Below, in pieces: positions 37,601 to 62,479 of a stretch of DNA of 64,000 nt. The notes beneath the pieces were generated by a model that ran no database searches, was not told the origin of the DNA, and saw only the letters and a program-made list of their open reading frames with translations. How positions within the stretch are numbered: the stretch's first letter is position 1; every line of letters begins with the position of its first letter. The position numbers and the translations under genes were made by a program. Location: NCBI GenBank assembly GCA_043228905.1, contig JBHGNT010000040.1, forward strand, positions 1 to 64,000, in the 5' to 3' direction. This stretch comes from Azolla caroliniana. Taxonomy: Eukaryota; Plantae; Polypodiophyta.

Positions 37601-40600
37601 AAATCGGATATCACACGAGCCAGGTATGAACATTTTAATTTACACACGCTCTCTTCTCAGATCCCTCCTCAAATTTTGTAATTTCTTCATGTCTCTCGAC
37701 CTGAGTTTCAAAATCTTGATTTTCTAATTCCATATCATAGCTAGTGTTGTTAGCTTCGATTCGCATGTTGTATGACCATTTTAATTTACTCACGCGCTGT
37801 TGTCAGCTCCCTCCTGTAATTTACTAATTTTTTCATGTCTCTCGACCTGAGTTTCAAAATCTTGATTTTCTAATTCCATATCATAGGTAGTGTTGTTAGC
37901 TTCGATTCGCATCTTTGAACAGTAAAATCCGATATCACACGAGCCAGGTATGACAATTTTAATTTCCTCACGCGATCTTCTCAACTCCCTCCTCTAATTT
38001 ACTAATTTCTTCATGTCTCTCGACCTGAGTTTCAAAATCTTGATTTTTTAACTCCATATCATAGCTAGTGTTGTTAGCTTCGAGTCGCATGATAGAACTC
38101 TAAAATCGGATATCACACGAGCCAGGTATGAACATTTTAATTTACTCACGCGCTCTTCTCAACTCCCTCCTCAAATTTACTAATTTCTTCATGTCTCTCG
38201 ACCTGAGTTTCAAAATCTTGATTTTCTAATTCCATATCATAGGTAGTGTTGTTAGCTTCGATTCGCATCTTTGAACAGTAAAATCCGATATCACACGAGC
38301 CAGGTATGACAACTTTAATTTACTCACGCACTCTTCTCAACTCCCTCCTCTAATTTACTAATTTCTTCATGTCTCTCGACCTGAGTTTCAAAATCTTGCT
38401 TTTTTAATTCGATATCATAGCTAGTGTTATTAGCTTCGATACGCAAGATGGAACACGAAAATCGGATATCACACCAGCCAGGTATGAACATTTTAATTTA
38501 CTCACTTGCTCTTCTCAACTCCCACCTCAAATTTACTAATTTCTTCATGTCTCTCGACCTGAGTTTCAAAATCTTGATTTTCTAATTCCATATCATAGCT
38601 AGTGTTGTCAGCTTCGATTCGCATCTTTGAACAGTAAAATCCGATATCACACGAGCCAGGTATGACAATTTTCATTTACTCACGCACTCTTCTCAACTCC
38701 CTCCTTTAATTTACTAATTTCTTCATGTCTCTCGACCTGAGTTTCAAAATCTTGATTTTTTAATTCGATATCATAGCTAGTGTTATTAGGTTCGATTCGC
38801 ATGATGGAACACGAAAATCGGATATCACACCAGCCAGGTATGAACATTTTAATTTACTCACTTGCTCTTCTCAACTCCCTCCTCAAATTTGGTAATTTCT
38901 TCATGTCTCTCGACCTGAGTTTCAAATTCTTGATTTTCTAATTCCATATAATAGGTAGTGTTGTTAGCTTCGATTCGCATGTTTGAACACTAAAATCCGA
39001 TATCACACGAGCCAGGTATGACCATTTTAATTTACTCACGCGCTCTTCTCAACTCCCTCCTCTAATTTACTAATTTCTTCATGTCTCTTGACCTGAGTTT
39101 CAAAATCTTGATTTTCTAATTCCATATCATAGGTAGTGTTGTTAGCTTCGAATCGCATCTTTGAACAGTAAAATCCGATATCACACGAGCCAGGTATGAC
39201 AACTTTAATTTACTCACGCACTCTTCTCAACTCCCTCCTCTAATTTATTAATTTCTTCATGTCTCTCGACCTGAGTTTCAAAATCTTGCTTTTTTAATTC
39301 GATAACATAGCTAGTGTTATTAGCTTCGATTCGCATGATGGAACACGAAAATCGGATATCACACCAGCCAGGTATGAACATTTTAATTTACTCACTTGCT
39401 CTTCTCAACTCCCTCCTCAAATTTGGTAATTTCTTCATGTCTCTCGACCTGAGTTTCAAATTCTTGATTTTCTAATTCCATATAATAGCTAGTGTTGTTA
39501 GCTTCGATTCGCATGTTTGAACACTAAAATCCGATATCACACGACCCAGGTATGACCATTTTAATTTACTCACGCGCTCTTCTCAACTCCCTCCTCTAAT
39601 TTACTAATTTCTTCATGTCTCTCGACCTGAGTTTCAAAATCTTGATTTTCTAATTCCATATCATAGGTAGTGTTGTTAGCTTCGATTCGCATCTTTGAAC
39701 AGTAAAATCCGATATCACACGAGCCAGGTATGACAATGTTAATTTCCTCACGCGATCTTCTCAGATCCCTCCTCTAATTTACTAATTTCTTCATGTCTCT
39801 CGACCTGAGTTTCAAAATCTTGATTTTCTAATTCCATATCATAGCTAGTGTTGTTAGCTTCGATTCGCATGTTGTATGAACATTTTAATTTACTCACGCG
39901 CTGTTGTCAGCTCCCTCCTGTAATTTACTAATTTTTACATGTCTCGCGACCTGAGTTTCAAAATCTTGATTTTCTAATTCCATATCATAGGTAGTGTTGT
40001 TAGCTTCGATTCGCATGTTTCAACACAAAAATCCGATATCACACGAGCCAGGTATGACAATTTTAATTTCCTCACGCGATCTTCTCAACTCCCTCCTCTA
40101 ATTTACTAATTTCTTCATGTCTCTCGACCTGAGTTTCAAAATCTTGATTTTTTAACTCCATATCATAGCTAGTGTCGTTAGCTTCGAGTCGCATGATAGA
40201 ACTCTAAAATCGGATATCACACGAGCCAGGTATGAACATTTTAATTTACTCACGCGCTCTTCTCAACTCCCTCCTCAAATTTACTAATTTCTTCATGTCT
40301 CTCGACCTGAGTTTCAAAATCTTGATTTTCTAATTTCATATCATAGCTAGTGTTGTCAGCTTCGATTCGCATGTTTGAACACAAAAATACGCTATCACAC
40401 GAGCCAGGTATGACAATTTTCATTTACTCACGCGCTCTTCTCAACTCCCTCCTCTAATTTACTAATTTCTTCATGTCTCTCGACCTGAGTTTCAAAATCT
40501 TGATTTTTTAACTCCATATCATAGCTAGTGTTGTTAGCTTCGAGTCGCATGATAGAACACTAAAATCGGATATCACACGAGCCAGGTATGAACATTTTAA

Positions 40601-40845
40601 TTTACTCACGCGCTCTTCTCAACTCCCTCCTCAAATTTACTAATTTCTTCATGTCTCTCGACCTGAGTTTCAAAATCTTGATTTTCTAATTTCATATCAT
40701 AGCTAGTGTTGTCAGCTTCGATTCGCATGTTTGAACACAAAAATACGCTATCACACGAGCCAGGTATGACAATTTTCATTTACTCACGCGCTCTTCTCAA
40801 CTCCCTCCTCTAATTTACTAATTTCTTCATGTCTCTCGACCTAAG

Positions 40846-40887
40846 TTTAGGGTTTAGGGTAGGGTTTAGGGTTTAGGGTTTAGGGTT
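40846..40887 (+). repeat. Interstitial telomeric tract, inverted relative to the terminal telomere (copy 1)
   Basis: (TTTAGGG)2 TAGGG (TTTAGGG)3 TT lies inside a monomer. About 40 new bp replace about 52 bp of satellite between CTAAGTTT and TCGCATCTTTG. Confidence 0.95.
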
Positions 40888-43800
40888 CTCGCATCTTTGA
40901 ACAGTAAAATCCGATATCACACGAGCCAGGTATGACAATGTTAATTTCCTCACGCGATCTTCTCAACTCCCTCCTCTAATTTACTAATTTATTCATGTCT
41001 CTCGACCTGAGTTTCAAAATATTGATTATTTAATTCCATATCATACCTAGTGTTGTTAGCTTCAATTCGGAGGATGGAACACTAAAATCGGATATCACAC
41101 GAGCCAGGTATGAAGATTTTAATTTACTCACGCTCTCTTCTCAGATCCCTCCTCAAATTTTGTAATTTCTTCATGTCTCTCGACCTGAGTTTCAAAATCT
41201 TGATTTTCTAATTCCATATCATAGGTAGTGTTGTTAGCTTCGATTCGCATCTTTGAACAGTAAAATCCGATATCACACGAGCCAGGTATGACTACTTTAA
41301 TTTACTCACGCACTCTTCTCAACTCCCTCCTCTAATTTACTAATTTCTTCATGTCTCTCGACCTGAGTTTCAAAATCTTGATTTTTTAATTTGATATCAT
41401 AGCTAGTGTTATTAGCTTCGATTCGCATGATGGAACACGAAAATCGGATATCACACCAGCCAGGTATGAACATTTTAATTTACTCACTTGCTCTTCTCAA
41501 CTCCCTCCTCAAATTTGGTAATTTCTTCATGTCTCTCGACCTGAGTTTCAAAATCTTGATTTTCTAATTCCATATAATAGGTAGTGTTGTTAGCTTCGAT
41601 TCGCATGTTTGAACACTAAAATCCGATATCACACGACCCAGGTATGACCATTTTAATTTACTCACGCGCTCTTCTCAACTCCCTCCTCTAATTTACTAAT
41701 TTCTTCATGTCTCTTGACCTGAGTTTCAAAATCTTGATTTTCTAATTCCATATCATAGGTAGTGTTATTAGCTTCGATTCGCATCTTTGAACAGTAAAAT
41801 CCGATATCACACGAGCCAGGTATGACAATGTTAATTTCCTCACGCGATCTTCTCAACTCCCTCCTCTAATTTACTAATTTCTTCATGTCTCTCGACCTGA
41901 GTTTCAAAATCTTGATTTTTTAACTCCATATCATAGCTAGTGTTGTTAGCTTCGAGTCGCATGATAGAACACTAAAATCGGATATCACACGAGCCAGGTA
42001 TGAACATTTTAATTTACTCACGAGCTCTTCTCAACTCCCTCCTCAAATTTACTAATTTCTTCATGTCTCTCGACCTGAGTTTCAAAATCTTGATTTTCTA
42101 ATTTCATATCATAGCTAGTGTTGTCAGCTTCGATTCGCATGTTTGAACACAAGAATACGCTATCACACGAGCCAGGTATGACAATTTTCATTTACTCACG
42201 CGCTCTTCTCAACTCCCTCCTCTAATTTACTAATTTCTTCATGTCTCTCGACCTGAGTTTCAAAATGTTGATTTTTTAATTCCATATCATACCTAGTGTT
42301 GTTAGCTTCAATTCGGAGGATGGAACACTAAAATCGGATATCACACGAGCCAGGTATGAACATTTTAATTTACTCACACTCTCTTCTCAGATCCCTCCTC
42401 AAATTTTGTAATTTCTTCATGTCTCTCGACCTGAGTTTCAAAATCTTGATTTTCTAATTCCATATCATAGGTAGTGTTGTTAGCTTCGATTCGCATCTTT
42501 GAACAGTAAAATCCGATATCACACGAGCCAGGTATGACAACTTTAATTTACTCACGCACTCTTCTCAACTCCCTCCTCTAATTTACTAATTTCTTCATGT
42601 CTCTCGACCTGAGTTTCAAAATCTTGATTTTTTAATTCGATATCATAGCTAGTGTTATTAGCTTCGATTCGCATGATGGAACACGAAAATCGGATATCAC
42701 ACCAGCCAGGTATGAACATTTTAATTTACTCACTTGCTCTTCTCAACTCCCTCCTCAAATTTGGTAATTTCTTCATGTCTCTCGACCTGAGTTTCAAATT
42801 CTTGATTTTCTAATTCCATATAATAGCTAGTGTTATTAGCTTCGATTCGCATGGTGGAACACTAAAATCGAATATCACACGACCCAGGTATGAACATTTT
42901 AATTTACTCACGTGCTCTTCTCAACTCCCTCCTCTAATTTATTAATTTATTCATGTCTCGCGACCTGAGTTTCAAAATCTTGATTTTCTAATTCCATATC
43001 ATAGCTAGTGTTGTTAGCATCGATTCGCATGATGGAACACTAAAATCGGATATCCACGAGCCAGGTATGAACATTTTAATTTACTCACGCGCTCTTCTCA
43101 ACTCCCTCCTCAAATTTACTAATTTCTTCATGTCTCTCGACCTGAGTTTCAAAATCTTGATTTTTTAATTCCATATCATAGCTAGTGTTATGAGCTTCGA
43201 TTCGCATGATTGGAACACTAAAATCGGATATCACACGAGCCAGTTATGAACATTTTAATTTACTCACGCGCTCTTCTCAACTCCCTCCTCTAATTTGCTA
43301 ATTTCTTCATGTCTCTCGACCTGAGTTTCAAAATCTTGATTTTCTAATTCCATATCATAGCTAGTGTTGTTAGCTTCGATTCGCATGTTGTATGAACATT
43401 TTAATTTACTCACGCGCTGTTGTCAGCTCCCTCCTGTAATTTACTAATTTTTTCATGTCTCGCGACCTGAGTTTCAAAATCTTGATTTTCTAATTCCATA
43501 TCATAGGTAGTGTTGTTAGCTTCGATTCGCATGTTTCAACACAAAAATCCGATATCACACGAGCCAGGTATGACAATTTTAATTTCCTCACGCGATCTTC
43601 TCAACTCCCTCCTCTAATTTACTAATTTCTTCATGTCTCTCGACCTGAGTTTCAAAATCTTGATTTTTTAACTCCATATCATAGCTAGTGTTGTTAGCTT
43701 CGAGTCGCATGATAGAACTCTAAAATCGGATATCACACGAGCCAGGTATGAACATTTTAATTTACTCACGCGCTCTTCTCAACTCCCTCCTCAAATTTAC

Positions 43801-44005
43801 TAATTTCTTCATGTCTCTCGACCTGAGTTTCAAAATCTTGATTTTCTAATTTCATATCATAGCTAGTGTTGTCAGCTTCGATTCGCATGTTTGAACACAA
43901 AAATACGCTATCACACGAGCCAGGTATGACAATTTTCATTTACTCACGCGCTCTTCTCAACTCCCTCCTCTAATTTACTAATTTCTTCATGTCTCTCGAC
44001 CTAAG

Positions 44006-44047
44006 TTTAGGGTTTAGGGTAGGGTTTAGGGTTTAGGGTTTAGGGTT
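44006..44047 (+). repeat. Interstitial telomeric tract, inverted (copy 2, identical to copy 1)
   Basis: Same tract, same internal TAGGG variant and same two junctions, 3160 bp downstream of copy 1. Confidence 0.95.
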
Positions 44048-47000
44048 CTCGCATCTTTGAACAGTAAAATCCGATATCACACGAGCCAGGTATGACAATG
44101 TTAATTTCCTCACGCGATCTTCTCAACTCCCTCCTCAAATTTTGTAATTTCTTCATGTCTCTCGACCTGAGTTTCAAAATGTTGATTATTTAATTCCATA
44201 TCATACCTAGTGTTGTTAGCTTCAATTCGGAGGATGGAACACTAAAATCGGATATCACACGAGCCAGGTATGAACATTTTAATTTACTCACGCTCTCTTC
44301 TCAGATCCCTCCTCAAATTTTGTAATTTCTTCATGTCTCTCGACCTGAGTTTCAAAATCTTGATTTTTTAACTCCATATCATAGCTAGTGTTGTCAGCTT
44401 CGATTCGCATCTTTGAACAGTAAAATCCGATATCACACGAGCCAGGTATGACAACTTTAATTTACTCACGCACTCTTCTCAACTCCCTCCTCTAATTTAC
44501 TAATTTCTTCATGTCTCTCGACCTGAGTTTCAAAATCTTGCTTTTTTAATTCGATATCATAGCTAGTGTTATTAGCTTCGATACGCATGATGGAACACGA
44601 AAATCGGATATCACACCAGCCAGGTATGAACATTTTAATTTACTCACGAGCTCTTCTCAACTCCCTCCTCAAATTTACTAATTTCTTCATGTCTCTCGAC
44701 CTGAGTTTCAAAATCTTGATTTTCTAATTTCATATCATAGCTAGTGTTGTCAGCTTCGATTCGCATGTTTGAACACAAAAATACGCTATCACACGAGCCA
44801 GGTATGACAATTTTCATTTACTCACGCGCTCTTCTCAACTCCCTCCTCTAATTTACTAATTTCTTCATGTCTCTCGACCTGAGTTTCAAAATGTTGATTT
44901 TTTAATTCCATATCATACCTAGTGTTGTTAGCTTCAATTCGGAGGATGGAACACTAAAATCGGATATCACACGAGCCAGGTATGAACATTTTAATTTACT
45001 CACGCTCTCTTCTCAGATCCCTCCTCAAATTTGCTAATTTCTTCATGTCTCTCGACCTGAGTTTCAAAATCTTCATTTTCTAATTCCATATCATAGCTAG
45101 TGTTGTTAGCTTCGATTCGCATCTTTGAACACTAAAATCCGATATCACATGAGCCAGGTATGAACACTTTAATTTACTCACGCGCTCTTCTCAACTCCCT
45201 CCTCTAATTTGCTAATTTGTTCATGTCTCTCGACCTGAGTTTCAAAATCTTGATTTTCTAATTCCATATCATAGGTAGTGTTGTTAGCTTCGATTCGCAT
45301 CTTTGAACAGTAAAATCCGATATCACACGAGCCAGGTATGACAACTTTAATTTACTCACGCACTCTTCTCAACCCCCTCCTCTAATTTACTAATTTCTTC
45401 ATGTCTCTCGACCTGAGTTTCAAAATCTTGCTTTTTTAATTCGATATCATAGCTAGTGTTATTAGCTTCGATTCGCATGATGGAACACGAAAATCGGATA
45501 TCACACCAGCCAGGTATGAACATTTTAATTTACTCACTTGCTCTTCTCAACTCCCTCCTCAAATTTGGTAATTTCTTCATGTCTCTCGACCTGAGTTTCA
45601 AATTCTTGATTTTCTAATTCCATATAATAGGTAGTGTTGTTAGCTTCGATTTGCATGTTTGAACACTAAAATCCGATATCACACGAGCCAGGTATGACCA
45701 TTTTAATTTACTCACGCGCTCTTCTCAACTCCCTCCTCTACTTTACTAATTTCATCATGTCTCTTGACCTGAGTTTCAAAATCTTGATTTTCTAATTCCA
45801 TATCATAGGTAGTGTTGTTAGCTTCGATTCGCATCTTTGAACAGTAAAATCCGATATCACACGAGCCAGGTATGACAACTTTAATTTACTCACGCACTCT
45901 TCTCAACTCCCTCCTCTAATTTACTAATTTCTTCATGTCTCTCGACCTGAGTTTCAAAATCATGCTTTTTTAATTCGATATCATAGCTAGTGTTATTAGC
46001 TTCGATTCGCATGATGGAACACGAAAATCGGATATCACACCAGCCAGGTATGAACATTTTAATTTACTCACTTGCTCTTCTCAACTCCCTCCTCAAATTT
46101 GGTAATTTCTTCATGTCTCTCGACCTGAGTTTCAAAATCTTGATTTTCTAATTCCATATCATAGCTAGTGTTGTTAGCTTCGATTCGCATGTTTGAACAC
46201 TAAAATCCGATATCACACGACCCAGGTATGACCATTTTAATTTACTCACGCGCTCTTCTCAACTCCCTCCTCTAATTTCCTAATTTCTTCATGTCTCTTG
46301 ACCTGAGTTTCAAAATCTTGATTTTCTAATTCCATATCATAGGTAGTGTTATTAGTTTCGATTCGCATCTTTGAACAGTAAAATCCGATATCACACGAGC
46401 CAGGTATGACAATGTTAATTTCCTCACGCGATCTTCTCAACTCCCTCCTCTAATTTACTAATTTCTTCATGTCTCTCGACCTGAGTTTCAAAATCTTGAT
46501 TTTTTAACTCCATATCATAGCTAGTGTTGTTAGCTTCGAGTCGCATGATAGAACACTAAAATCGGATATCACACGAGCCAGGTATGAACATTTTAATTTA
46601 CTCACGAGCTCTTCTCAACTCCCTCCTCAAATTTACTAATTTCTTCATGTCTCTCGACCTGAGTTTCAAAATCTTGATTTTCTAATTTCATATCATAGCT
46701 AGTGTTGTCAGCTTCGATTCGCATGTTTGAACACAAAAATACGCTATCACACGAGCCAGGTATGACAATTTTCATTTACTCACGCGCTCTTCTCAACTCC
46801 CTCCTCTAATTTACTAATTTCTTCATGTCTCTCGACCTGAGTTTCAAAATGTTGATTTTTTAATTCCATATCATACCTAGTGTTGTTAGCTTCAATTCGG
46901 AGGATGGAACACTAAAATCGGATATCACACGAGCCAGGTATGAACATTTTAATTTACTCACGCTCTCTTCTCAGATCCCTCCTCAAATTTTGTAATTTCT

Positions 47001-49756
47001 TCATGTCTCTCGACCTGAGTTTCAAAATCTTGATTTTCTAATTCCATATCATAGGTAGTGTTGTTAGCTTCGATTCGCATCTTTGAACAGTAAAATCCGA
47101 TATCACACGACCCAGGTATGAACATTTTAATTTACTCACGTGCTCTTCTCAACTCCCTCCTCTAATTTATTAATTTATTCATGTCTCGCGACCTGAGTTT
47201 CAAAATCTTGATTTTCTAATTCCATATCATAGCTAGTGTTGTTAGCATCGATTCGCATGATGGAACACTAAAATCGGATATCACACGAGCCAGGTATGAA
47301 CATTTTAATTTACTCACGCGCTCTTCTCAACTCCCTCCTCAAATTTACTAATTTCTTCATGTCTCTCGACCTGAGTTTCAAAATCTTGATTTTCTAATTC
47401 CATATCATAGCTAGTGTTGTTAGCTTCGATTCGCATCTTTGGACACTAAAATCTGATATCACACGAGCCAGGTACGAACATTTTAATTTACTCACGCGCC
47501 CTTCTCAACTCCCTCCTCTAATTTGCTAATTTCTTCATGTCTCTCGACCTGAGTGTCAAAATCTTGATTTTCTAATTCCATATCATAGGTAGTGTTGTTA
47601 GCTTCGATTCGCATGTTTGAACACAAAAATCCGATATCACACGAGCCAGGTATGACAATTTTAATTACTCACGCAATCTTCTCAACTCCCTCCTCTGATT
47701 TACTAATTTCATCATGTCTCTCGACCTGAGTTTCAAAATCTTGATTTTCTAATTCCATATCATAGCTAGTGTTATTAGTTTCGATTCGCATGATGGAACA
47801 CTAAAATCGAATATCACACATCCCAGGTATGAACATTTTAATTTACTCACGTGCTCTTCTCAACACCCTCCTCTTATTTACTAATTTATTCATGTCTTGC
47901 GACCTGAGTTTCAAAATCTTGACTTTTTAATTCCATATCATAGCTAGTGTTATTAGCTGCGATTCGCATGATTTGAACACTAAAATCGAATATCACACGA
48001 CCCAGGTATGAACATTTTAATTTACTCACGTGCTCTTCTCAACTCCCTCCTCTAATTTATTAATTTATTCATGTCTCACTACCTGAGTTTCAAAATCTTG
48101 ATTTTCTAATTCCATATCATAGCTAGTGTTGTTAGCATCGATTCGCATGGTGGAACACTAAAATCGGATATCACACGAGCCAGGTATAAACATTTTAATT
48201 TACTCACGCGCTCTTCTGAACTCCCTCCTCAAATTTACTAATTTCTTCATGTCTCTCGACCTGAGTTTCGAAATCTTGATTTTCTAATTCCATATCATAG
48301 CTAGTGTTGTTAGCTTCGATTCGCATCTTTGAACACTAAAATCGGATATCACACGAGCCAGTTACGAACATTTTAATTTACTCACGCGCTCTTCTCAACT
48401 CCCTCCTCTAATTTACTAATTTCTTTTTAATTTACTCACGCGCTCTTCTCAACTCCCTCCTCTGATTTACTAATTTTATCATGTCTCTCGACCTGAGTTT
48501 CAAAATCTTGATTTTCTAATTCCATATTATAGCTAGTGTTGTTAGCTTCGATTTGCATCTTTGAACACTAAAATCCGATATAACACGAGCCAGGTACGAA
48601 CATTTTAATTTACTCACGCGCTCTTCTCAAATCCCTCCTCTAATTTGCTAATTTCTTCATGTCTCTCGACCTGAGTGTCAAAATCTTGATTTTTTAATTC
48701 CATATTATAGCTAGTGTTGTTAGCTTCGATTCGCATGTTTGAACACTAAAATCCGATATCACACAAGCCAGGTATGACAATTTTAATTTACTCACGCGCT
48801 CTTCTTAACTCCCTCCTCTAATTTACTAATTTCTTCATGTCTCTCGACCTGAGTTTCAAAATCTTGATTTTCTAATTCCATATCATTGCTAGTGTTGTTA
48901 GCTTCGATTCGCATCTTTGAACACTAAAATCCGATATCACACGAGCCAGTTATGAACATTTTAATTTACTCACGCGCTCTTCTCAACTCCCTCCTCTAAT
49001 TTGCTAATTTCTTCATGTCTCTCGACCTGAGTTTCAAAATCTTGATTTTCTAATTCCATATCATAGCTAGTGTTGTTAGCTTCGATTCGCATGTTTGAAC
49101 ACTAAAATCCGATATCACACAAGCCAGGTATGACAATTTTAATTTACTCACGCGCTCTTCTTAACTCCCTCCTCTAATTTACTAATTTCTTCATGTCTCT
49201 TGACCTGAGTTTCAAAATCTTGATTTTCTAATTCCATATCATTGCTAGTGTTGTTAGCTTCGATTCACATCTTTGAACACTAGAATCCGATATCACACGA
49301 GCCAGGTATGACAACTTTAATTTACTCACGCGCTCTTCTCAACTCCCTTCTCAAATTTGGTAATTTCTTCATGTCTCTCGACCTGAGTTTCAAAATCTTG
49401 ATTTTCTAATTCCATATCATAGCTAGTGTTGTTAGCTTCGATTCGCATGTTTGAACACTAAAGTCCGATATCACACAAGCCAGGTATGACAATTTTAATT
49501 TACTCACGCGCTCTTCTCAACTCCCTCCTCTAATTTACTTATTTCTTCATGTCTCTCGACCTGAGTTTCAAAATCTTTATTTTCTAATTCCATATCATAG
49601 CTAGTGTTGTTAGCTTCGATTCGCATCTTTGAACACTAAAAGCCGGTATCACACGAGCCAGGTATGACAACTTTAATTTACTCACGCGCTCTTCTCAACT
49701 CCCTCCTCAAATTTGGTAATTTCTTCATGTCTCTCGACCTGAGTTTCAAAATCTGG

Positions 49757-51082
49757 CCCTCCCCTCCCCACCCACCATCCAACCTCGCCCTCATAGGAAC
49801 TTTAGAACTGCACTACACAATCTCAAAAAAAATGAAGACATAGTTATTAAACCCGCGGATAAAAATCTAGGCACGTGCATTCTCTCTAAGGATTGGTACC
49901 TTAACGAATGCCTTAGACAGCTCAACGACAAAAACACTTATACCCCCGTCAAAGACGTCCCCCTAGAAACTCTCCACAGTCGACTTGAACACCTATGTCT
50001 GTAAGCTTCCCCCCACCTCTCCAATGAGGAAATTAGATTCCTCCTTCAGAAACCCAAACATGGTTTCAGGATATGTTGTTTCTACATCATCCCCAAAATC
50101 CACAAGCCCATTGTTGTAGGACGCCCTATTTGCGCCTACAACAATTATGTTTTCGAAAGAGCCTCTAAATGGCTACACCATCTACTACATCCTGTCTTAT
50201 TGTCTAAAAAACAACACCTCAAAGACTCCTTAACACTTGTTAAGGACCTAGCACACCACACCTTCCCCAAAACTTGCACGTTGTTTTCTTTTGACGTAGT
50301 GTCACTATATCCCAGTATACCTACCACGGAAGGTCTATTGGTTTTTAAAAAATCTATTTCACATCATTTCCCACCACACAAAACCAAAATCATTATGAGT
50401 GTTGCCGAACTAATACTTAGAAACAATTTTCTCTCCTTTAATAATGCTTTTTGGTTACAAATTAAAGGCACCGCGATGGGTAGTAATTTTGCGGTTGTTT
50501 ACGCTTGCTTGTTTCTTTCGCAGCTAGAGGACGACAACCTAGCTTTCCAAACACCGCAACTACTCTACTACAAACGCTACATTGATGATGCCATAGGAGT
50601 TTGGGAAGGTTCCCCCGATACACTTCACACCTTCTTACACCAATACGGCGTGCCTCTACAACAACACATCCGTATTGAATCAACAACCTCCCCTAAAGAG
50701 ATCACCATCCTGGACGTCGTCTTCTTCAAAGGCCCATACTTTAACGAATTCGGCATCCTCGACACCACATGCCACCAAAAACCTCTCAATGCCTACATGT
50801 ACCTCCCGTGGAAATCCTCGCACCCCATAGCACACAAAAAGGGCTTCATCACGGGCGAACTAAAACGGTATGCTATTCGGGAGAGCTCGGAAAATGGCTA
50901 CATGGAACTACGCAAAAAGTTCTACGACCGCCTAAGAGCTAGGGGCTACCCATCGAAGTTCCTACTCAAGTGTTTTTCGACCGTCCCCTACTCCATACGA
51001 AACCAACTACTCTCTAACCAACCCAACAACAAAAAACCTCCACCCATTGTTTTTAAGCTTCGATACTCCCCTTGTATCAAAA
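49757..51082 (+). mobile_element. Penelope-like retroelement (PLE) fragment, truncated at both ends, embedded in the satellite
   Basis: Non-satellite 1326-bp segment consisting entirely of RT reading frame. Left junction CAAAATCTGG|CCCTCCCC, right junction TATCAAAA|AACTCCCTCCTC. No terminal repeats, target-site duplication or endonuclease domain seen. Confidence 0.85.
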
Positions 51083-51105
51083 AACTCCCTCCTCTAATTT
51101 ACTAA
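49759..51105 (+). pseudogene. PLE-type reverse transcriptase, disrupted (includes ORF-track 50200..51105)
   Basis: One frame carries ALHNLKKNEDIVIKPADKNLG (PLE N-terminal DKG-like motif), FYIIPKIHK..GRPI (motifs 1/2), FSFDVVSLYPSIP (A), QIKGTAMGSNFA (B'), YYKRYIDD (C), ITILDV (E), and the thumb region QKPLNAYMYLPWKSSHP..GFITGELKRY..RLRARGYP. There is an in-frame TAA at 50002-50004 and no native start. The last codons and the stop come from satellite. Confidence 0.88.
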
Positions 51106-54100
51106 TTTCTTCATGTCTCGCGACCTGGGTTTCAAAATCTTGATTTTCTAATTCCATATTATAGCTAGTGTTATTAGCTTCTATTCGCATGATGTAACAC
51201 TAAAATCGGATATCACACGAGCCAGGTATGATAATTTTAATTTACTCACTTGCTCTTCTCAACTCCCTCCTCAAATTTACTAATTTCTCCATGTCTCTCG
51301 ACCTGAGTTTCAAAAACTTGATTTTTTAATTCCATATCATAGCTAGTGTTGTTAGCTTCGATTCGCATCTTTGAACACTAAAATCCGATATCACACGAGC
51401 CAGGTATGACAACTTTAATTTACTCACGCGCTCTACTCAACTCCCTTCTCTAATTTACTAATTTCTTCATGTCTCTCGACCTGAGTTTCAAAATCTGGAT
51501 TATTTAATTCCATATCATAGCTAGTGTTATTAGCTTCGATTCGCATGATGGAACACTAAAATCGGATATCACACGAGCCAGTTATGAACATTTTAATTTA
51601 CTCACGCGCTCTTCTCAACTCCCTCCTCTAATTTACTAATTTCTTCATGTCTCTCGACCTGAGTTTCAAAATCTGGATTTTTTAATTCCATATCATAGCT
51701 AGTGTTGTTAGCTTCGATTCGCATGTTTGAACACTAAAATCCGATATCACTCGAGCCAGGTATGACAATTTTAATTTACTCACGCGCTCTTCTCAACTCC
51801 CTCCTCTAATTTACTACTTTCTTCATGTCTCTCGACCTGAGTTTCAAAATCTTGATTTTTTAATTCCATATCATAGCTAGTGTTATTAGCTGCGATTCGC
51901 ATGATTGGAACACTAAAATCCGATATCACACGAGCCAGTTATGAACATTTTAATTTACTCACGCGCTCTTCTCAACTCCCTCCTCAAATTTGCTAATTTC
52001 TTCATGTCTCTCGACCTGAGTTTCAAAATCTTGATTTTTTAATTCCATATCATAGCTAGTGTTATTAGCTTCGATTCACATGATGGAACACTAAAATCGG
52101 ATATCACACGAGGCAGTTATGAACATTTTAATTTACTCACGCGCTCTTCTCAACTCCCTCCTCTAATTTACTAATTTCTTCATGTCTCTCGACCTAAGTT
52201 TCAAAATCTTGATTTTTTAACTCCATATCATAGCTAGTGTTGTTAGCTTCGATTCGCATGTTTGAACACTAAAATCCGATATCACTCGAGCTAGGTATGA
52301 CAATTTGAATTTACTCACGCGCTCTTCTCAACTCCCTCCTCTAATTTACTAATTTCTTCATGTCTCTCGACCTGAGTTTCAAAATCTTGATTTTTTAAAT
52401 CCATATCATAGCTAGTGTTATTAGCTGCGATTCGCACGAGTTGAACACTAAAATCCGAGATCACACCAGCCAGTTATGAACATTTTAATTTACTCACGCG
52501 CTCTTCTCAACTCCCTCCTCAAATTTGGTAATTTCTTCATGTCTCTCGACCTGAGTTTCAAAATCTTGATTATTTAATTCCATATCAGAGCTAGTGTTGT
52601 TAGCTTCGATTCGCATCTTTGAACACTAAAATCCGATATCACACGAGCCAGGTATGACAACTTTAATTTACTCACGCGCTCTTCTCAACTCCCTCCTCAA
52701 ATTTGGTAATTTCTTCATGTCTCTCGACCTAAGTTTAAAAATCTGGATTATTTAATTCCATATCAGAGCTAGTGTTGTTAGCTTCGATTCGCATCTTTGA
52801 ACACTAAAATCCGATATCACACGAGCCAGGTATGACAACTTTAATTTACTCACGCGCTCTTCTCAACTCCCTCCTCAAATTTGGTAATTTCTTCATGTCT
52901 CTCGACCTAAGTTTAAAAATCTGGATTTTTTAATTCCATATCATAGCTAGTGTTATTAGCTGCGATTCGCATGATTTGAACACTAAAATCCGATATCACA
53001 CGAGCCAGTTATGAACATTTTAATTTACTCACGCGCTCTTCTCAACTCCCTCCTCTAATTTACTAATTTCTTCATGTCTCTCGACCTAAGTTTCAAAATC
53101 TTGATTTTTTAACTCCATATCATAGCTAGTGTTGTTAGCTTCGATTCGCATGTTTGAACACTAAAATCCGATATCACTCGAGCTAGGTATGACAATTTGA
53201 ATTTACTCACGCGCTCTTCTCAACTCCCTCCTCTAATTTACTAATTTCTTCATGTCTCTCGACCTGAGTTTCAAAATCTTGATTTTTTAAATCCATATCA
53301 TAGCTAGTGTTATTAGCTGCGATTCGCACGAGTTGAACACTAAAATCCGATATCACACCAGCCAGTTATGAACATTTTAATTTACTCACGCGCTCTTCTC
53401 AACTCCCTCCTCAAATTTGGTAATTTCTTCATGTCTCTCGACCTGAGTTTCAAAATCTTGATTTTTTAATTCCATATCAGAGCTAGTGTTGTTAGCTTCG
53501 ATTCGCATGTTTGAACACAAAAATTGGATATCACACGAGCCAGGTATGACAATTTTAATTTACTCACGCGATCTTCTCAACTCCCTCGTCTGATTTACTA
53601 ATTTCTTCATGTCTCTTGACCTGAGTTTCAAATTCTTGATTTTCTAATTCCATATCAAAGCTAGTGTTGTTAGCTTCGATTCGCATCTTTGAACACTAAA
53701 ATCCGATATCACACGAGCCAGGTATGACAACTTTAATTTACTCACGCGCTCTTCTCAACTCCCTCCTCAAATTTGGTAATTTCTTCATGTCTCTCGACCT
53801 AAGTTTAAAAATCTGGATTTTTTAATTCCATATCATAGCTAGTGTTATTAGCTGCGATTCGCATGATTTGAACACTAAAATCCGATATCACACGAGCCAG
53901 TTATGAACATTTTAATTTACTCACGCGCTCTTCTCCACTCCCTCCTCAAATTTGGTAATTTCTTCATGTCTCTCGACCTGAGTTTTAAAATCTTGATTTT
54001 CTAATTCCATATCATAGCTAGTGTTGTTAGCTTTGATTCGCATGTTTGAACACAACAATCCCATATCACACGAGCCAGGTACGAACATTTTAATTTACTC

Positions 54101-56199
54101 ACGCGCTCTTCTCAACTCCCTCCTCAAATTTGGTAATTTCTTCATGTCTCTCGACCTGAGTTTCAAAATCTAGATTTTTTAATTCCATATCATAGCTAGT
54201 GTTGTTAGCTTCGATTCGCATGTTTGAACACTAAATTCCAATATCACTCGAGCCAGGTATGACAATTTGAATTTACTCACGCGCTCTTCTCAACTCCCTC
54301 CTCTAATTTACTAATTTCTTCATGTCTCTCGACCTGAGTTTCAAAATCTTGATTGTTTAAATCCATATCATAGCTAGTGTTATTAGCTGCGATTCGCACG
54401 AGTTGAACACTAAAATCCGATATCACACCAGCCAGTTATGAACATTTTAATTTACTCACGCGCTCTTCTCAACTCCCTCCTCAAATTTGGTAATTTCTTC
54501 ATGTCTCTCGACCTGAGTTTCAAAATCTTGATTATTTAATTCCATATCAGAGCTAGTGTTGTTAGCTTCGATTCGCATCTTTGAACACTAAAATCCGATA
54601 TCACACGAGCCAGGTATGACAACTTTAATTTACTCACGCGCTCTTCTCAACTCCCTCCTCAAATTTGGTAATTTCTTCATGTCTCTCGACCTAAGTTTAA
54701 AAATCTGGATTTTTTAATTCCATATCATAGCTAGTGTTATTAGCTTCGATTCGCATGATTTGAACACTAAAATCCGATATCACACGAGCCAGGTATGACA
54801 ACTTTAATTTACTCACGCGCTCTTCTCAACTCCCTCCTCAAATTTGGTAATTTCTTCATGTCTCTCGACCTAAGTTTAAAAATCTGGATTTTTTAATTCC
54901 ATATCATAGCTAGTGTTATTAGCTGCGATTCGCATGATTTGAACACTAAAATCCGATATCACACGAGCCAGTTATGAACATTTTAATTTACTCACGCGCT
55001 CTTCTCAACTCCCTCCTCTAATTTACTAATTTCTTCATGTCTCTCGACCTGAGTTTCAAAATCTTGATTTTTTAAATCCATATCATAGCTAGTGTTATTA
55101 GCTGCGATTCGCACGAGTTGAACACTAAAATCCGATATCACACCAGCCAGTTATGAACATTTTAATTTACTCACGCGCTCTTCTCAACTCCCTCCTCAAA
55201 TTTGGTAATTTCTTCATGTCTCTCGACCTGAGTTTCAAAATCTTGATTTTTTAATTCCATATCAGAGCTAGTGTTGTTAGCTTCGATTCGCATGTTTGAA
55301 CACAAAAATTGGATATCACACGAGCCAGGTATGACAATTTTAATTTACTCACGGGATCTTCTCAACTCCCTCGTCTGATTTACTAATTTCTTCATGTCTC
55401 TTGACCTGAGTTTCAAAATCTTGATTTTCTAATTCCATATCAAAGCTAGTGTTGTTAGCTTCGATTCGCATCTTTGAACACTAAAATCCGATATCACACG
55501 AGCCAGGTATGACAACTTTAATTTACTCACGCGCTCTTCTCAACTCCCTCCTCAAATTTGGTAATTTCTTCATGTCTCTCGACCTAAGTTTAAAAATCTG
55601 GATTTTTTAATTCCATATCATAGCTAGTGTTATTAGCTGCGATTCGCATGATTTGAACACTAAAATCCGATATCACACGAGCCAGTTATGAACATTTTAA
55701 TTTACTCACGCGCTCTTCTCCACTCCCTCCTCAAATTTGGTAATTTCTTCATGTCTCTCGACCTGAGTTTCAAAATCTTGATTTTCTAATTCCATATCAT
55801 AGCTAGTGTTGTTAGCTTTGATTCGCATGTTTGAACACAACAATCCCATATCACACGAGCCAGGTACGAACATTTTAATTTACTCACGCGCTCTTCTCAA
55901 CTCCCTCCTCAAATTTGGTAATTTCTTCATGTCTCTCGACCTGAGTTTCAAAATCTGGATTTTTTAATTCCATATCATAGCTAGTGTTGTTAGCTTCGAT
56001 TCGCATGTTTGAACACTAAATTCCAATATCACTCGAGCCAGGTATGACAATTTTAATTTACTCACGCGCTCTTCTCAACTCCCTCCTCTAATTTGCTAAT
56101 TTCTTCATGTCTCTCGATCTGAGTTTCAAAATCTTGATTTTTTAATTCCATATCATAGCTAGTGTTGTTATCTTTGATTCGCATGATGGAACCCTAAAA

Positions 56200-59100
56200 T
56201 CGGATATCACACGAGCCAGGTATGACAATTTTAATTTACTCACGCGATCTTTTCAAATCCCTCCTCTGATTTACTAATTTCATCATGTCTCTCGACCTGA
56301 GTTTCAAAATCTTGATTTTCTAATTCCATATCATAGCTAGTGTTGTTAGCTTCGATTCACATGTTTGAACACAACAATCTCATATCACACGAGCCAGGTA
56401 CGAACATTTTAATTTACTCACGCGCTCTTCTCAACTCCCTCCTCTAATTTGCTAATTTCTTCATGTCTCTCGACCTGAGTTTCAAAATCTTGATTTTTTA
56501 ATTCCATATCATAGCTAGTGTTGTTAGCTGCGATTCGCATGTTTGAACACAACAATCCCATATCACACGAGCCAGGTACGAACATTTTAATTTACTCACG
56601 CGGTCTTCTCAACTCCCTCCTCTAATTTGGTAATTTCTTTATGTCTCCCGACCTGAGTTTCAAAATCTTAATTTTTTAATTCCATATCATAGCTAGTGTT
56701 GTTAGCTTCGATTCGCATGTTTGAACACAAAAATAGGATATCACACGAGCCAGGTATGACAATTTTAATTTACTGACGCGATCTTCTCAACTCCCTCCTC
56801 TGATTTACTAATTGCATCATGTCTCTCGACCTGAGTTTCAAAATCTTGATTTTCTAATTCCATATCATAGCTATTGTTAATAGCTTCGATTCGCATGTTT
56901 GAACACAACAATCCCATATCACACGAGCCAGGTACGAACATTTTAATTTACTCACGCGCTCTTCTCAACTCCCTCCTCTAATTTGCTAATTTCTTCATGT
57001 CTCTCGACCTGAGTTTCAAAACCTTGATTTTTTAATTCCATATCATAGCTAGTGTTGTTAGCTTCGATTCGCATCTTTGAACATTAAAATCCGATATCAC
57101 ACGACAATTTTAATTTACTCACCTGCTCTTCTCAACTCCCTCCTCAAATTTGGTAATTTCTTCATGTCTCTCGACCTGAGTTTCAAAATTTTGATTTTTT
57201 AATTGCATATCATAGCTAGTGTTATTAGCTTCGATTCGCATGATGGAACACTAAAATCGAATATCACACATCCCAGGTATGAACATTTTAATTTACTCAC
57301 GTGCTCTTCTCAACACCCTCCTCTAATTTACTAATTTCTTCATGTCTCTCGACCTGAGTTTCAAAATCTTGACTTTTTAAATCCATATCATAGCTAGTGT
57401 TATTAGCTGCGATTCGCATGATTTGAACACTAAAATCCGATATCACACGAGCTAGTTATGAACATTTTAATTTACTCACGCGCTCTTCTCCACTCCCTCC
57501 TCAAATTTGGTAATTTCTTCATGTCTCTCGACCTGAGTTTCAAAATCTTGATTTTTTAATTCCATATCAGAGCTAGTGTTGTTAGCTTCGATTCGCATGT
57601 TTGAACACAAAAATCGGATATCACACGAGCCAGGTATGACAATTTTAATTTACTCACGCGATCTTCTCAACTCCCTCGTCTGATTTACTAATTTCTTCAT
57701 GTCTCTTGACCTGAGTTTCAAAATCTTGATTTTCTAATTCCATATCAAAGCTAGTGTTGTTAGCTTCGATTCGCATCTTTGAACACTAAAATCCGATATC
57801 ACACGAGCCAGGTATGACAACTTTAATTTACTCACGCGCTCTTCTCAACTCCCTCCTCAAATTTGGTAATTTCTTCATGTCTCTCGACCTAAGTTTAAAA
57901 ATCTGGATTTTTTAATTCCATATCATAGCTAGTGTTATTAGCTGCGATTCGCATGATTTGAACACTAAAATCCGATATCACACGAGCCAGTTATGAACAT
58001 TTTAATTTACTCACGCGCTCTTCTCCACTCCCTCCTCAAATTTGGTAATTTCTTCATGTCTCTCGACCTGAGTTTCAAAATCTTGATTTTTTAATACCAT
58101 ATCATAGCTAGTGTTGTTACCTTCGATTCGCATGTTTGAACACAAAACTCGGATATCACACGAGCCAGGTATGACAATTTTAATTTACTCACGCGATCTT
58201 TTCAAATCCCTCCTCTGATTTACTAATTTCATCATGTCTCTCGACCTGAGTTTCAAAATCTTGATTTTCTAATTCCATATCATAGCTAGTGTTGTTAGCT
58301 TCGATTCACATGTTTGAACACAACAATCTCATATCACACGAGCCAGGTACGAACATTTTAATTTACTCACGCGCTCTTCTCAACTCCCTCCTCTAATTTG
58401 CTAATTTCTTCATGTCTCTCGACCTGAGTTTCAAAATCTTGATTTTTTAATTCCATATCATAGCTAGTGTTGTTAGCTGCGATTCGCATGTTTGAACACA
58501 ACAATCCCATATCACACGAGCCAGGTACGAACATTTTAATTTACTCACGCGGTCTTCTCAACTCCCTCCTCTAATTTGGTAATTTCTTTATGTCTCCCGA
58601 CCTGAGTTTCAAAATCTTAATTTTTTAATTCCATATCATAGCTAGTGTTGTTAGCTTCGATTCGCATGTTTGAACACAAAAATAGGATATCACACGAGCC
58701 AGGTATGACAATTTTAATTTACTGACGCGATCTTCTCAACTCCCTCCTCTGATTTACTAATTGCATCATGTCTCTCGACCTGAGTTTCAAAATCTTGATT
58801 TTCTAATTCCATATCATAGCTATTGTTAATAGCTTCGATTCGCATGTTTGAACACAACAATCCCATATCACACGAGCCAGGTACGAACATTTTAATTTAC
58901 TCACGCGCTCTTCTCAACTCCCTCCTCTAATTTGCTAATTTCTTCATGTCTCTCGACCTGAGTTTCAAAATCTTGATTTTTTAATTCCATATCATAGCTA
59001 GTGTTGTTAGCTTCGATTCGCATCTTTGAACATTAAAATCCGATATCACACGACAATTTTAATTTACTCACCTGCTCTTCTCAACTCCCTCCTCAAATTT

Positions 59101-60700
59101 GGTAATTTCTTCATGTCTCTCGACCTGAGTTTCAAAATTTTGATTTTTTAATTGCATATCATAGCTAGTGTTATTAGCTTCGATTCGCATGATGGAACAC
59201 TAAAATCGAATATCACACATCCCAGGTATGAACATTTTATTTTACTCACGTGCTCTTCTCAACACCCTCCTCTAATTTACTAATTTCTTCATGTCTCTCG
59301 ACCTGAGTTTCAAAATCTTGACTTTTTAAATCCATATCATAGCTAGTGTTATTAGCTGCGATTCGCATGATTTGAACACTAAAATCCGATATCATACGAG
59401 CTAGTTATGAACATTTTAATTTACTCACGCGCTCTTCTCCACTCCCTCCTCAAATTTGGTAATTTCTTCATGTCTCTCGACCTGAGTTTCAAAATCTTGA
59501 TTTTTTAATTCCATATCAGAGCTAGTGTTGTTAGCTTCGATTCGCATGTTTGAACACAAAAATCGGATATCACACGAGCCAGGTATGACAATTTTAATTT
59601 ACTCACGCGATCTTCTCAACTCCCTCGTCTGATTTACTAATTTCTTCATGTCTCTTGACCTGAGTTTCAAAATCTTGATTTTCTAATTCCATATCAAAGC
59701 TAGTGTTGTTAGCTTCGATTCGCATCTTTGAACACTAAAATCCGATATCACACGAGCCAGGTATGACAACTTTAATTTACTCACGCGCTCTTCTCAACTC
59801 CCTCCTCAAATTTGGTAATTTCTTCATGTCTCTCGACCTAAGTTTAAAAATCTGGATTTTTTAATTCCATATCATAGCTAGTGTTATTAGCTGCGATTCG
59901 CATGATTTGAACACTAAAATCCGATATCACACGAGCCAGTTATGAACATTTTAATTTACTCACGCGCTCTTCTCCACTCCCTCCTCAAATTTGGTAATTT
60001 CTTCATGTCTCTCGACCTGAGTTTCAAAATCTTGATTTTTTAATACCATATCATAGCTAGTGTTGTTACCTTCGATTCGCATGTTTGAACACAAAAATCG
60101 GATATCACACGAGCCAGGTATGACAATTTTAATTTACTCACGCGATCTTTTCAAATCCCTCCTCTGATTTACTAATTTCATCATGTCTCTCGACCTGAGT
60201 TTCAAAATCTTGATTTTTTAATTCCATTTCATAGCTAGTGTTGTTAGCTTCGATTCACATGTTTGAACACAACAATCTTATATCACACGAGCCAGGTACG
60301 AACATTTTAATTTACTCACGCGCTCTTCTCAACTCCCTCCTCTAATTTGCTAATTTCTTCATGTCTCTCGACCTGAGTTTCAAAATCTTGATTTTTTAAT
60401 TCCATATCATAGCTAGTGTTGTTAGCTTCGATTCGCATCTTTGAACATTAAAATCCGATATCACACGACAATTTTAATTTACTCACCTGTTCTTCTCAAC
60501 TCCCTCCTCAAATTTGGTAATTTCTTCATGTTTCTCGACCTGAGTTTCAAAATTTTGATTTTATAATTGCATATCATAGCTAGTGTTATTAGCTTCGATT
60601 CGCATGATGGAACACTAAAATCGAATATCACACATCCCAGGTATGAACATTTTAATTTACTCACGTGCTCTTCTCAACACCCTCCTCTTATTTACTAATT
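56200..60700 (+). repeat. 11-monomer (1949-bp) duplication plus a shortened third copy in the inner array; boundaries approximate
   Basis: A monomer with an 11-bp deletion (CACACGA^CAATTTT) occurs at 57098, 59047 and 60462. Spacings are 1949 (11x178-11+2) and 1415 (8x178-11+2). Confidence 0.8.
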
Positions 60701-62339: not shown

Positions 62340-62479
62340 CCCTCCCCTCCCCACCCACCATCCAACCTCGCCCTCATAGGAACTTTAGAACTGCACTACA
62401 CAATCTCAAAAAAAATCAAGACATAGTTATTAAACCCGCGGATAAAAATCTAGGCACGTGCATTCTCTCTAAGGATTGG
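62340..62479 (+). mobile_element. 140-bp second copy of the 5' end of the PLE fragment
   Basis: Matches 49757-49896 with one substitution seen (G49834 vs C62417). The left junction CAAAATCTGG|CCCTCCCC is identical. It returns to satellite at CATAGTTGTTAGC. Confidence 0.93.

What the first reader, a model, noticed from the sequence alone, without database searches (positions are those of the whole stretch)
49757..51082. Penelope-like RT fragment in a telomere-linked satellite, oriented as if added to a chromosome end
Seen: about 440 codons of PLE-type RT (ADKNLG, YIDD, thumb) with one stop and no frameshift, no endonuclease in the fragment, and no TSD. The sense strand is +, so its 5' end faces the telomere, and it is visibly A/C-rich like the telomeric strand. 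Established: endonuclease-lacking PLEs (Athena, Coprina and relatives) are related to telomerase RT and attach to chromosome ends in this orientation; Naiad/Chlamys PLEs carry an N-terminal GIY-YIG that would lie outside such a fragment. Inference: this may be a recently active, possibly undescribed PLE family that patches breaks in the terminal satellite. Orientation alone is a 50% coincidence.
Basis: partly seen in the sequence, partly recalled or inferred. Interest (0 to 1): 0.8.

Follow-up and report, generated by a model that had tools for sequence, protein, structure and literature searches.

The report
Cutter-less Penelope elements spread genome-wide
The insert is a broken-off middle piece of a young plant jumping gene that has no DNA-cutting enzyme yet is scattered over all chromosomes in both directions, likely because its telomerase-like copying enzyme starts at existing DNA breaks, so the telomere-facing direction of this one piece is likely chance.

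Summary
Observation confirmed: 49757-51082 is 1,326 bp of Penelope-like (PLE) RT, one stop, in a 178-bp satellite 47 kb from a (CCCTAAA)n end. It is an internal fragment, cut at both ends, of a 5.2-kb family (ORF1, RT, hammerhead, pseudo-LTR, no GIY-YIG), and one insertion copied four times within the array. The telomere reading fails: 47 copies on long contigs lie uniformly, 20 face the nearer end and 27 do not; none of 27 telomere arrays carries a PLE in the Athena/Coprina orientation. The RT groups with Selaginella, Ginkgo and Cryptomeria endonuclease-less PLEs. The interesting part is how the family moves: fixed 3' end, 2-9 nt microhomology to unrelated targets, duplications to ~670 bp or deletions to ~2.6 kb, telomere repeats at 2 of 39 5' joints. 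This fits priming at existing breaks (inferred). Sister families with telomere-like 3' tracts are enriched in the satellite (12 of 23 junctions; satellite ~2% of the genome), mostly 3' toward the telomere. The scan noted this PLE kind before on other DNA of this genome. New variant of a known kind.

The parts
1..2327 (+). Terminal telomere array (CCCTAAA)n, chromosome end to the left
   Evidence: 333 copies, 98% match
2325..49756 (+). 178-bp subtelomeric satellite, distal block
49757..51082 (+). Internal fragment of the RT ORF of a dispersed endonuclease-less PLE family (family F0), cut at both ends; matches positions 2668-4000 of a 5,250-bp unit
49855..49872 (+). ADKNLG (DKN) motif of PLE RTs
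50002..50004 (+). Nonsense codon TAA, shared with the copy at C40:76205; AAA in the other 15 of 16 copies compared
50578..50589 (+). YIDD catalytic motif
51083..51088 (+). 6-nt microhomology AACTCC shared by element and satellite at the right joint
51083..62339 (+). 178-bp satellite, resumes with 118 (+178n) bp missing
62340..62483 (+). 141-bp deletion derivative of the same insertion (same left joint), copied with the satellite
40845..40887 (-). Short telomere tract (TTTAGGG on +, inverted relative to the terminal array) replacing part of a monomer; likely a healed break
44005..44047 (-). Duplicate of the inverted telomere tract, same context

Best explanation
The insert is an internal piece of a young, endonuclease-less Penelope-like element that was likely captured once at a break in the satellite through short microhomology and then likely copied by satellite recombination, and its family is dispersed over all chromosomes, likely by priming reverse transcription at existing DNA breaks. 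Shown: unit anatomy (5' UTR, ORF1 of 655 aa, overlapping RT ORF without GIY-YIG, 1.1-kb 3' UTR with a hammerhead core, pseudo-LTR), a 3' end fixed to within about 5 nt, 2-9 nt identity between that end and unrelated targets, target duplications or deletions of no modal size, uniform positions and both orientations. Inferred mechanism: the RT holds its RNA near a conserved CGCAC motif 27-43 nt before the 3' end, anneals the last few bases to any free 3'-OH at a break or gap, copies the RNA, and host end-joining or synthesis-dependent repair closes the 5' side, sometimes after telomerase has added repeats. Whether the window piece came from RNA primed internally or from a DNA copy cannot be told.
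For: Both ends of the insert continue as element sequence in the dispersed copies shown; four C40 copies share one left joint. No GIY-YIG in full-length copies or in the 95 best-scoring of 120 listed relatives; the only GIY-YIG match in the genome, 1 of 9 candidates, reads as a host SLX1-type exon (label recalled) with no RT nearby. Positions: 20 of 47 face the nearer end (p=0.38), KS against uniform p=0.23, 3 within 1 Mb of an end against 4.5 expected. 32 of 36 host 3' junctions end 5-10 nt after CAATCTT. Where the target is known the overlap is AG, AGC, CGT, CGT or 9 nt, with no shared target sequence. 16 of 45 non-C40 insertions were informative: 9 duplications of about 2, 13, 15-20, 130, 140, 146, 200, 240, 670 bp and 7 deletions of about 26, 43, 44, 530-560, 530-570, 740, 2,640 bp. 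Telomere repeats sit at 2 of 39 5' joints against 3 of 5,944 flank windows (p=2e-4). Four sister families show the same fixed ends and dispersal. Hammerhead core invariant with compensatory changes in 12 sequences. Model folds closest to TERT.
Against: No biochemistry. Deletion sizes rest on paralogous empty sites 69-94% alike and could be later events; three of the long duplications lie in tandem repeats; 29 of 45 insertions gave no target information. Two sites (13 and 15-20 bp duplications, one at an A run) look like nick-primed insertions, and LINE endonucleases exist in the genome (an AP-endonuclease-like frame flanks one copy). Genome searches score only the best candidates (40 of 91; 111 of 494; 9), so a divergent nuclease-bearing partner is not excluded. 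ORF1 has no informative homologue, so a cryptic nuclease in it is not excluded. Contigs are not all telomere-to-telomere, so 'nearer end' is approximate.
Confidence: 0.68

Rival explanations
1. Telomere-attachment model: the family adds itself to chromosome ends or terminal-satellite breaks with its 5' end outward, as Athena and Coprina do, and the window piece is such an addition later buried.
For: Orientation in the window is the canonical one and the right joint has 6 nt of microhomology on the strand that would prime. The clade can do this: metagenome contig L140 has a relative's 3' end joined to (CCCTAAA)n, and a diverged subfamily copy 182 kb from the C19 end is followed by two such repeats. 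The 5' UTR holds about 2 CCCTAAA repeats. One sister copy lies in canonical orientation 2 kb inside the C294 telomere.
Against: The piece lacks the element's 3' end. 0 of 36 family 3' junctions are in satellite; 1 satellite locus among about 52 is what 2-4% of the genome would give. No orientation bias. Of 27 telomere arrays examined none has a PLE attached 5'-outward; the one PLE directly at a telomere (C7) is reversed. Sister-family junctions in the satellite are 13 reversed to 4 canonical.
Confidence: 0.07
2. The family is mobilised in trans at nicks made by another element's endonuclease (LINE AP endonuclease or an undetected GIY-YIG PLE); the odd flanks are later rearrangements.
For: Fixed 3' ends with A-rich termini and 5' truncation are LINE-like; two short duplications; LINE-like endonuclease frames occur in the genome.
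Against: The A run is templated (it continues into the next unit in tandem copies); targets share no consensus; 7 of 16 informative sites are deletions and 6 are duplications over 100 bp, some 99-100% identical; no PLE-type GIY-YIG found.
Confidence: 0.15
3. The family primes at replication intermediates (nascent-strand 3' ends or stalled forks) rather than at double-strand breaks; long duplications come from template switching.
For: Near-identical duplications of 130-670 bp; several targets are tandem repeats, a tRNA array or satellite; 13 of 17 satellite junctions would be primed by the C-rich strand, which is the lagging strand of a fork moving to the telomere (p=0.049 against 50%).
Against: The strand bias is explained by A-rich microhomology on the A-richer strand (p=0.32 at 62%). 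Telomere repeats at 5' joints and large deletions point to free broken ends.
Confidence: 0.1

Closest known systems
Endonuclease-less Coprina-group PLEs of Selaginella moellendorffii (Sm1/Sm2) and EN(-) PLEs of conifers (known to me through PMC8557442, PMC4209133, PMC9033089, PMC13159263; primary papers not held)
   Same: RT clade with Selaginella, Ginkgo and Cryptomeria proteins (35 rows, SH-aLRT 99); no GIY-YIG; type I hammerhead with palindromic loop; pseudo-LTR; 5' truncation; two ORFs as in Coprina-1_Alen.
   Different: Described as at or near telomeres and attaching to G-rich overhangs through complementary repeats. This family has no telomere tract near its 3' end, is dispersed, and joins unrelated targets through 2-9 nt.
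PLE-X families of Chara braunii and Selaginella (EN-less members of the Chlamys clade; PMC8557442 passages)
   Same: No endonuclease, canonical hammerhead, genome-wide in Chara; the authors leave open how they insert.
   Different: PLE-X carry CxC and belong to Naiad/Chlamys; this RT has no CxC before DKN and no insertion in fingers (motif A to B' 58 aa, as in C-terminal EN+ relatives).
Endonuclease-independent L1 insertion at DNA breaks (recalled, no call)
   Same: No target consensus, target deletions, microhomology, untemplated filler.
   Different: There a minor route of an EN+ element, often with lost 3' ends; here it would be the main route of an element without any EN, with a sharply defined 3' start.
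Telomerase healing of breaks
   Same: Closest fold is TERT; priming on a few bases at a free 3' end from a fixed place in the RNA (inferred); telomere repeats co-occur at some joints.
   Different: Copies kilobases of its own RNA once rather than a short repeat many times.

Membership tests
Penelope-like elements (PLE) | RT with DKG/DKN motif, motifs 1-7 and thumb, related to TERT | tested here: met
   Motifs; model pLDDT 88.9 with TERT as ranks 1-2 in PDB; relatives include GIY-YIG PLE proteins
Penelope-like elements (PLE) | Pseudo-LTR or partial tandem structure, 5' truncation and inversion | tested here: met
   165-327 bp of the 3' end repeated at the 5' side in L031, L032, L042; inverted 5' piece in L034; graded 5' truncation
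Penelope-like elements (PLE) | Hammerhead ribozyme motif in the 3' region | tested here: met
   Core invariant, 4 of 9 pairs with compensatory change in 12 sequences; Rfam did not report it; cleavage not tested
Penelope-like elements (PLE) | Placement in a tree with named PLE clades and TERT | tested here: inconclusive
   Tree of 123 rows has no named Athena, Coprina, Neptune or TERT reference and no root
Telomeric EN- PLEs (Coprina/Athena type) | No GIY-YIG endonuclease in the full element | tested here: met
Telomeric EN- PLEs (Coprina/Athena type) | RT groups with the Selaginella EN- element | tested here: met
   Clade with LOC112343723, 41% identity; that this protein is Sm1 or Sm2 was not tested
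Telomeric EN- PLEs (Coprina/Athena type) | Reverse-complement telomere repeats near the RNA 3' end | tested here: not met
   2 scattered motifs in the last 500 nt of this family, about 2 repeats in the 5' UTR; met in sister families F2 (12) and F4 (14)
Telomeric EN- PLEs (Coprina/Athena type) | Located at chromosome ends, 5' end outward, 3' end on telomere repeats | tested here: not met
   met only by a relative on metagenome contig L140
Naiad/Chlamys (N-terminal EN) and PLE-X | N-terminal GIY-YIG | tested here: not met
   Upstream ORF1 has no Pfam match below E 0.05 and no GIY-YIG
Naiad/Chlamys (N-terminal EN) and PLE-X | CxC motif before the RT and insertion in fingers | tested here: not met
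   No CxC; A-to-B' spacing 58 aa
C-terminal EN+ PLEs (Penelope/Poseidon, Neptune, Nematis, Hydra) | C-terminal GIY-YIG after the thumb | tested here: not met
   ORF ends about 50 aa after the fragment, at the same place in the copies translated; the 9 GIY-YIG rows fall outside the plant clade

The most novel reading that the evidence does not exclude
Land-plant Coprina-clade PLEs are not telomere specialists but true genome-wide retrotransposons without any nuclease: a telomerase-like RT starts at a fixed RNA signal and heals ordinary DNA breaks with its own sequence, and families whose 3' UTR carries a long telomere-complementary tract are steered to subtelomeric satellite (12 of 23 junctions against 5 of 88) without needing to prime on telomere repeats.
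Probability: 0.45. Interest if true: 0.75.

Novelty: new variant of a known kind. Interest (0 to 1): 0.52.

Why it matters
Current reviews hold that the GIY-YIG endonuclease is what lets PLEs spread inside chromosomes, and that EN-less PLEs stay at or near telomeres; for the one genome-wide EN-less group (Chara PLE-X) the route is stated to be open (PMC8557442). Five young EN-less families with hundreds of candidate copies, readable junctions and open RT frames in one plant genome make that question directly testable, and give a living model for an RT midway between telomerase and retrotransposons. The window insert itself is ordinary debris of this process.

Tried and rejected
TSD at the window insert: rejected (5 of 58 mismatches). 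A/C richness as a telomere sign: rejected (clade trait). Fixed 1,326-bp non-autonomous unit: rejected, the equal match lengths were the query's. Pfam found nothing in the fragment or the full RT; PDB sequence search 0 hits; Rfam gave only flanking tRNAs. ORF1: 3 homologues, all close kin, no domain; Atlas best score 0.76, a lead only. RT search of 40 ends of the 20 longest contigs (6 kb each): 0 hits, though the non-RT part of a sister element lies at the C7 end. A DNA donor for the window piece: none of 28 dispersed copies carries the two changes unique to the C40 pair. Sequencing runs: no RNA holder listed; contigs of 4 runs listed no piece bridging the satellite-element joints, most pieces not shown, so presence in other individuals is open. 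Lagging-strand explanation of the reversed orientation in satellite: not needed. Papers not held: Gladyshev and Arkhipova 2007, Lin et al. 2016, Arkhipova et al. 2017.

Full report
Observation. The window is the first 64 kb of a 260-kb contig (C40) of a 523-Mb assembly. It starts with 2.3 kb of CCCTAAA and continues as a 178-bp satellite in one orientation to the contig end. The stretch 49757-51082 carries one + frame of PLE-type RT with a single TAA. The host is a plant by its telomere repeat and its relatives; I did not test which group.

The insert is a fragment. A search of the genome gave 41 matches among 40 scored of 91 candidates, most 93-100% identical. In the dispersed copies the element runs on at both sides of the window's borders. 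The right joint shares AACTCC with the satellite, the left joint about one base. The satellite resumes out of register, and the apparent 60-bp repeat differs at 5 of 58 sites, so 118 (+178n) bp is missing rather than duplicated. The same left joint recurs at 62340, C40:64774 (141-bp derivatives) and C40:76205 (full 1,326 bp): one event, amplified with the array. The two long copies differ at 4 sites and share the stop; the nearest dispersed copies differ at 7 of 1,326. None of 28 dispersed copies has the two changes unique to the C40 pair, so no DNA donor is identified.

The whole element. Twelve 10-kb loci give a unit of about 5.2 kb: 5' UTR with about two CCCTAAA, ORF1 (655 aa, proline-rich, no known domain), an overlapping RT frame that ends about 50 residues after the window fragment, a 1.1-kb 3' UTR, and in three loci a 165-327 bp copy of the 3' end in front (pseudo-LTR); one locus has an inverted 5' piece. 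A metagenome contig holds the unit at 5,171 bp. Nine of 30 loci keep the RT frame open. There is no GIY-YIG at either side. In the protein search the 95 best of 120 listed relatives lack PF01541, and the genome's only PF01541 match, 1 of 9 candidates, reads as a host SLX1-type exon (label recalled). A type I hammerhead core lies 170 nt after the stop; over 12 family members and relatives it is invariant, with compensatory changes in 4 of 9 pairs. The AlphaFold model (pLDDT 88.9) matches TERT first. In a 123-row tree (2 short hits and the 3 ORF1 proteins left out; unrooted, no named references) the RT lies in a 35-row clade (SH-aLRT 99) with Selaginella, Ginkgo, Cryptomeria and four sister families of the same genome; all 9 GIY-YIG rows lie outside. 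It has no CxC and no insertion in fingers.

Where the family lies. Merging searches gives 48 loci on long contigs, 47 of known contig length (small contigs left out). Twenty have the 5' end toward the nearer end and 27 do not (p=0.38); positions fit a uniform spread (p=0.23); 3 lie within 1 Mb of an end against 4.5 expected. None of 36 host 3' junctions is in the satellite. The satellite is about 2% of the assembly (41,579 exact word matches), so one satellite locus among about 52 is expected by chance. Of 27 telomere arrays examined, satellite follows in 24, other DNA in 2, and at C7 a sister element abuts the telomere in the reverse of the Athena orientation.

How it inserts. Thirty-two of 36 host junctions end 5-10 nt after CAATCTT, and those bases are templated, since tandem copies continue the same way. 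Where the target is known the overlap is 2-3 nt, once 9, with no common target. Sixteen of 45 insertions outside C40 could be compared with a duplicated flank or a paralogous empty site: 9 duplications (about 2 to 670 bp) and 7 deletions (about 26 to 2,640 bp); the deletions rest on paralogues 69-94% alike and three duplications lie in tandem repeats. Telomere repeats stand at 2 of 39 5' joints, once on each strand (p=2e-4). The window's satellite also holds a duplicated, inverted telomere tract replacing part of a monomer. I infer priming on free 3' ends at existing breaks, with host repair finishing the 5' side. This is inference; a helper nuclease or fork priming remain possible.

Sister families. 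A protein search scored 111 of 494 candidates and showed about 70 copies at 45-47% identity. Four families (F1-F4) were followed by their 3' ends (30, 26, 30 and 18 loci read). All have fixed ends 33-43 nt after a shared CGCAC motif (27 nt in the window's family) and are dispersed. After removing tandem continuations, partial matches and duplicates, satellite junctions number 2 of 22, 10 of 17, 3 of 30 and 2 of 6. F2 and F4, which carry 12-14 telomere-like motifs in the last 500 nt, give 12 of 23 against 5 of 88 for the other three families (Fisher p=1e-6; only five families, and the youngest copies were sampled). Of the 17 satellite junctions, 13 have the element's 3' end toward the telomere side and 4 the canonical way; A-rich microhomology on the A-richer strand can account for this, and the satellite is inverted on a few contigs. 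A relative on metagenome contig L140 is joined to telomere repeats in the canonical way, so the clade keeps that ability.

Comparison with print. PMC8557442 (abstract, Introduction, first part of Discussion, passages) states that EN- PLEs are generally restricted to termini, and that for genome-wide EN-less PLE-X in Chara the route remains to be seen. PMC4209133 (passages) reports canonical type I hammerheads in Selaginella PLEs. PMC9033089 and PMC12477314 (passages) list EN- PLEs in Selaginella and conifers. PMC13159263 (passages) describes a two-ORF Coprina at chromosome ends and mentions scattered PLE matches in two other isolates. bioRxiv 10.64898/2026.07.22.740005 (passages) adds nothing here. 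The primary papers of 2007, 2016 and 2017 were not held, and I did not read the supplements of PMC8557442; any of these may already note internal copies of plant EN- PLEs. Ten searches found no description of a dispersed Coprina-clade plant family or of its junctions. Endonuclease-independent L1 insertion is recalled, from no call.

Earlier scan notes. Two notes on other DNA of this genome already report EN-less PLEs with hammerheads. One suggests a second RNA signal near the copying start, which my CGCAC result agrees with, and attachment to chromosome tips, which my data do not show for these families in this assembly. The other suggests patching of a break, which agrees. They are leads, not support.

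Verdict. The feature is real. The insert is inert debris and its orientation carries no weight. It is a PLE of the land-plant EN-less clade, but fails the telomere-attachment test, so I do not file it as a telomeric Coprina. The family-level behaviour, genome-wide spread without a nuclease, is a new variant of a known kind and makes an open question testable. Interest 0.52.

Noticed in passing
window 40845-40887 and 44005-44047: Identical inverted telomere tracts replace part of a satellite monomer; likely telomerase acted on the distal side of a break that was then rejoined, and the block was duplicated.
   Followed up: partly
G000:C7:3713-7880 (L116, L263): A sister PLE (F4) partial tandem sits between the terminal telomere and the satellite with its 3' side toward the telomere, the reverse of Athena/Coprina.
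   Followed up: partly
G000:C60:145440-149850 and C46:5760-9600 (L239, L238): F2 copies under 1 kb from terminal telomeres, reversed; at C60 the 3' end joins 11 G-rich telomere repeats directly.
   Followed up: partly
G000:C400, C29:86-100 kb, C22:8.945-8.968 Mb, C20:9.47-9.48 Mb: Head-to-tail arrays of 3-5 whole PLE units (5.6 or 4.7 kb period), suggesting tandem or circular RNA templates.
   Followed up: no
L134, L136, L138, L272, L298, L357: just after the 3' end in tandem copies: A conserved TATGGAGG...TCGGAG stretch at the start of the next unit could pair with the CGCACTCCT motif before the 3' end in F1, F2, F4 and relatives.
   Followed up: no
L038:6400-6560 (G000:C261): ORF1 stops inside the open RT frame and no ATG precedes the first conserved RT block; a frameshift or an intron may join the two frames.
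   Followed up: no
L038:57-4200 and 9451-9523 (G000:C261): Tandem array of tRNA genes and pseudogenes (TTC anticodon); the PLE insertion duplicated one whole tRNA gene (130-140 bp).
   Followed up: partly
G000:C102, C178, C8 left, C13 left, C17 right, C20 right, C51: The satellite is inverted or of mixed orientation relative to the contig end or telomere.
   Followed up: no
P0044, P0062 and 21 related rows: A clade of about 580-aa RTs without GIY-YIG on long contigs, one named from a coral, may be another dispersed EN-less PLE group.
   Followed up: no
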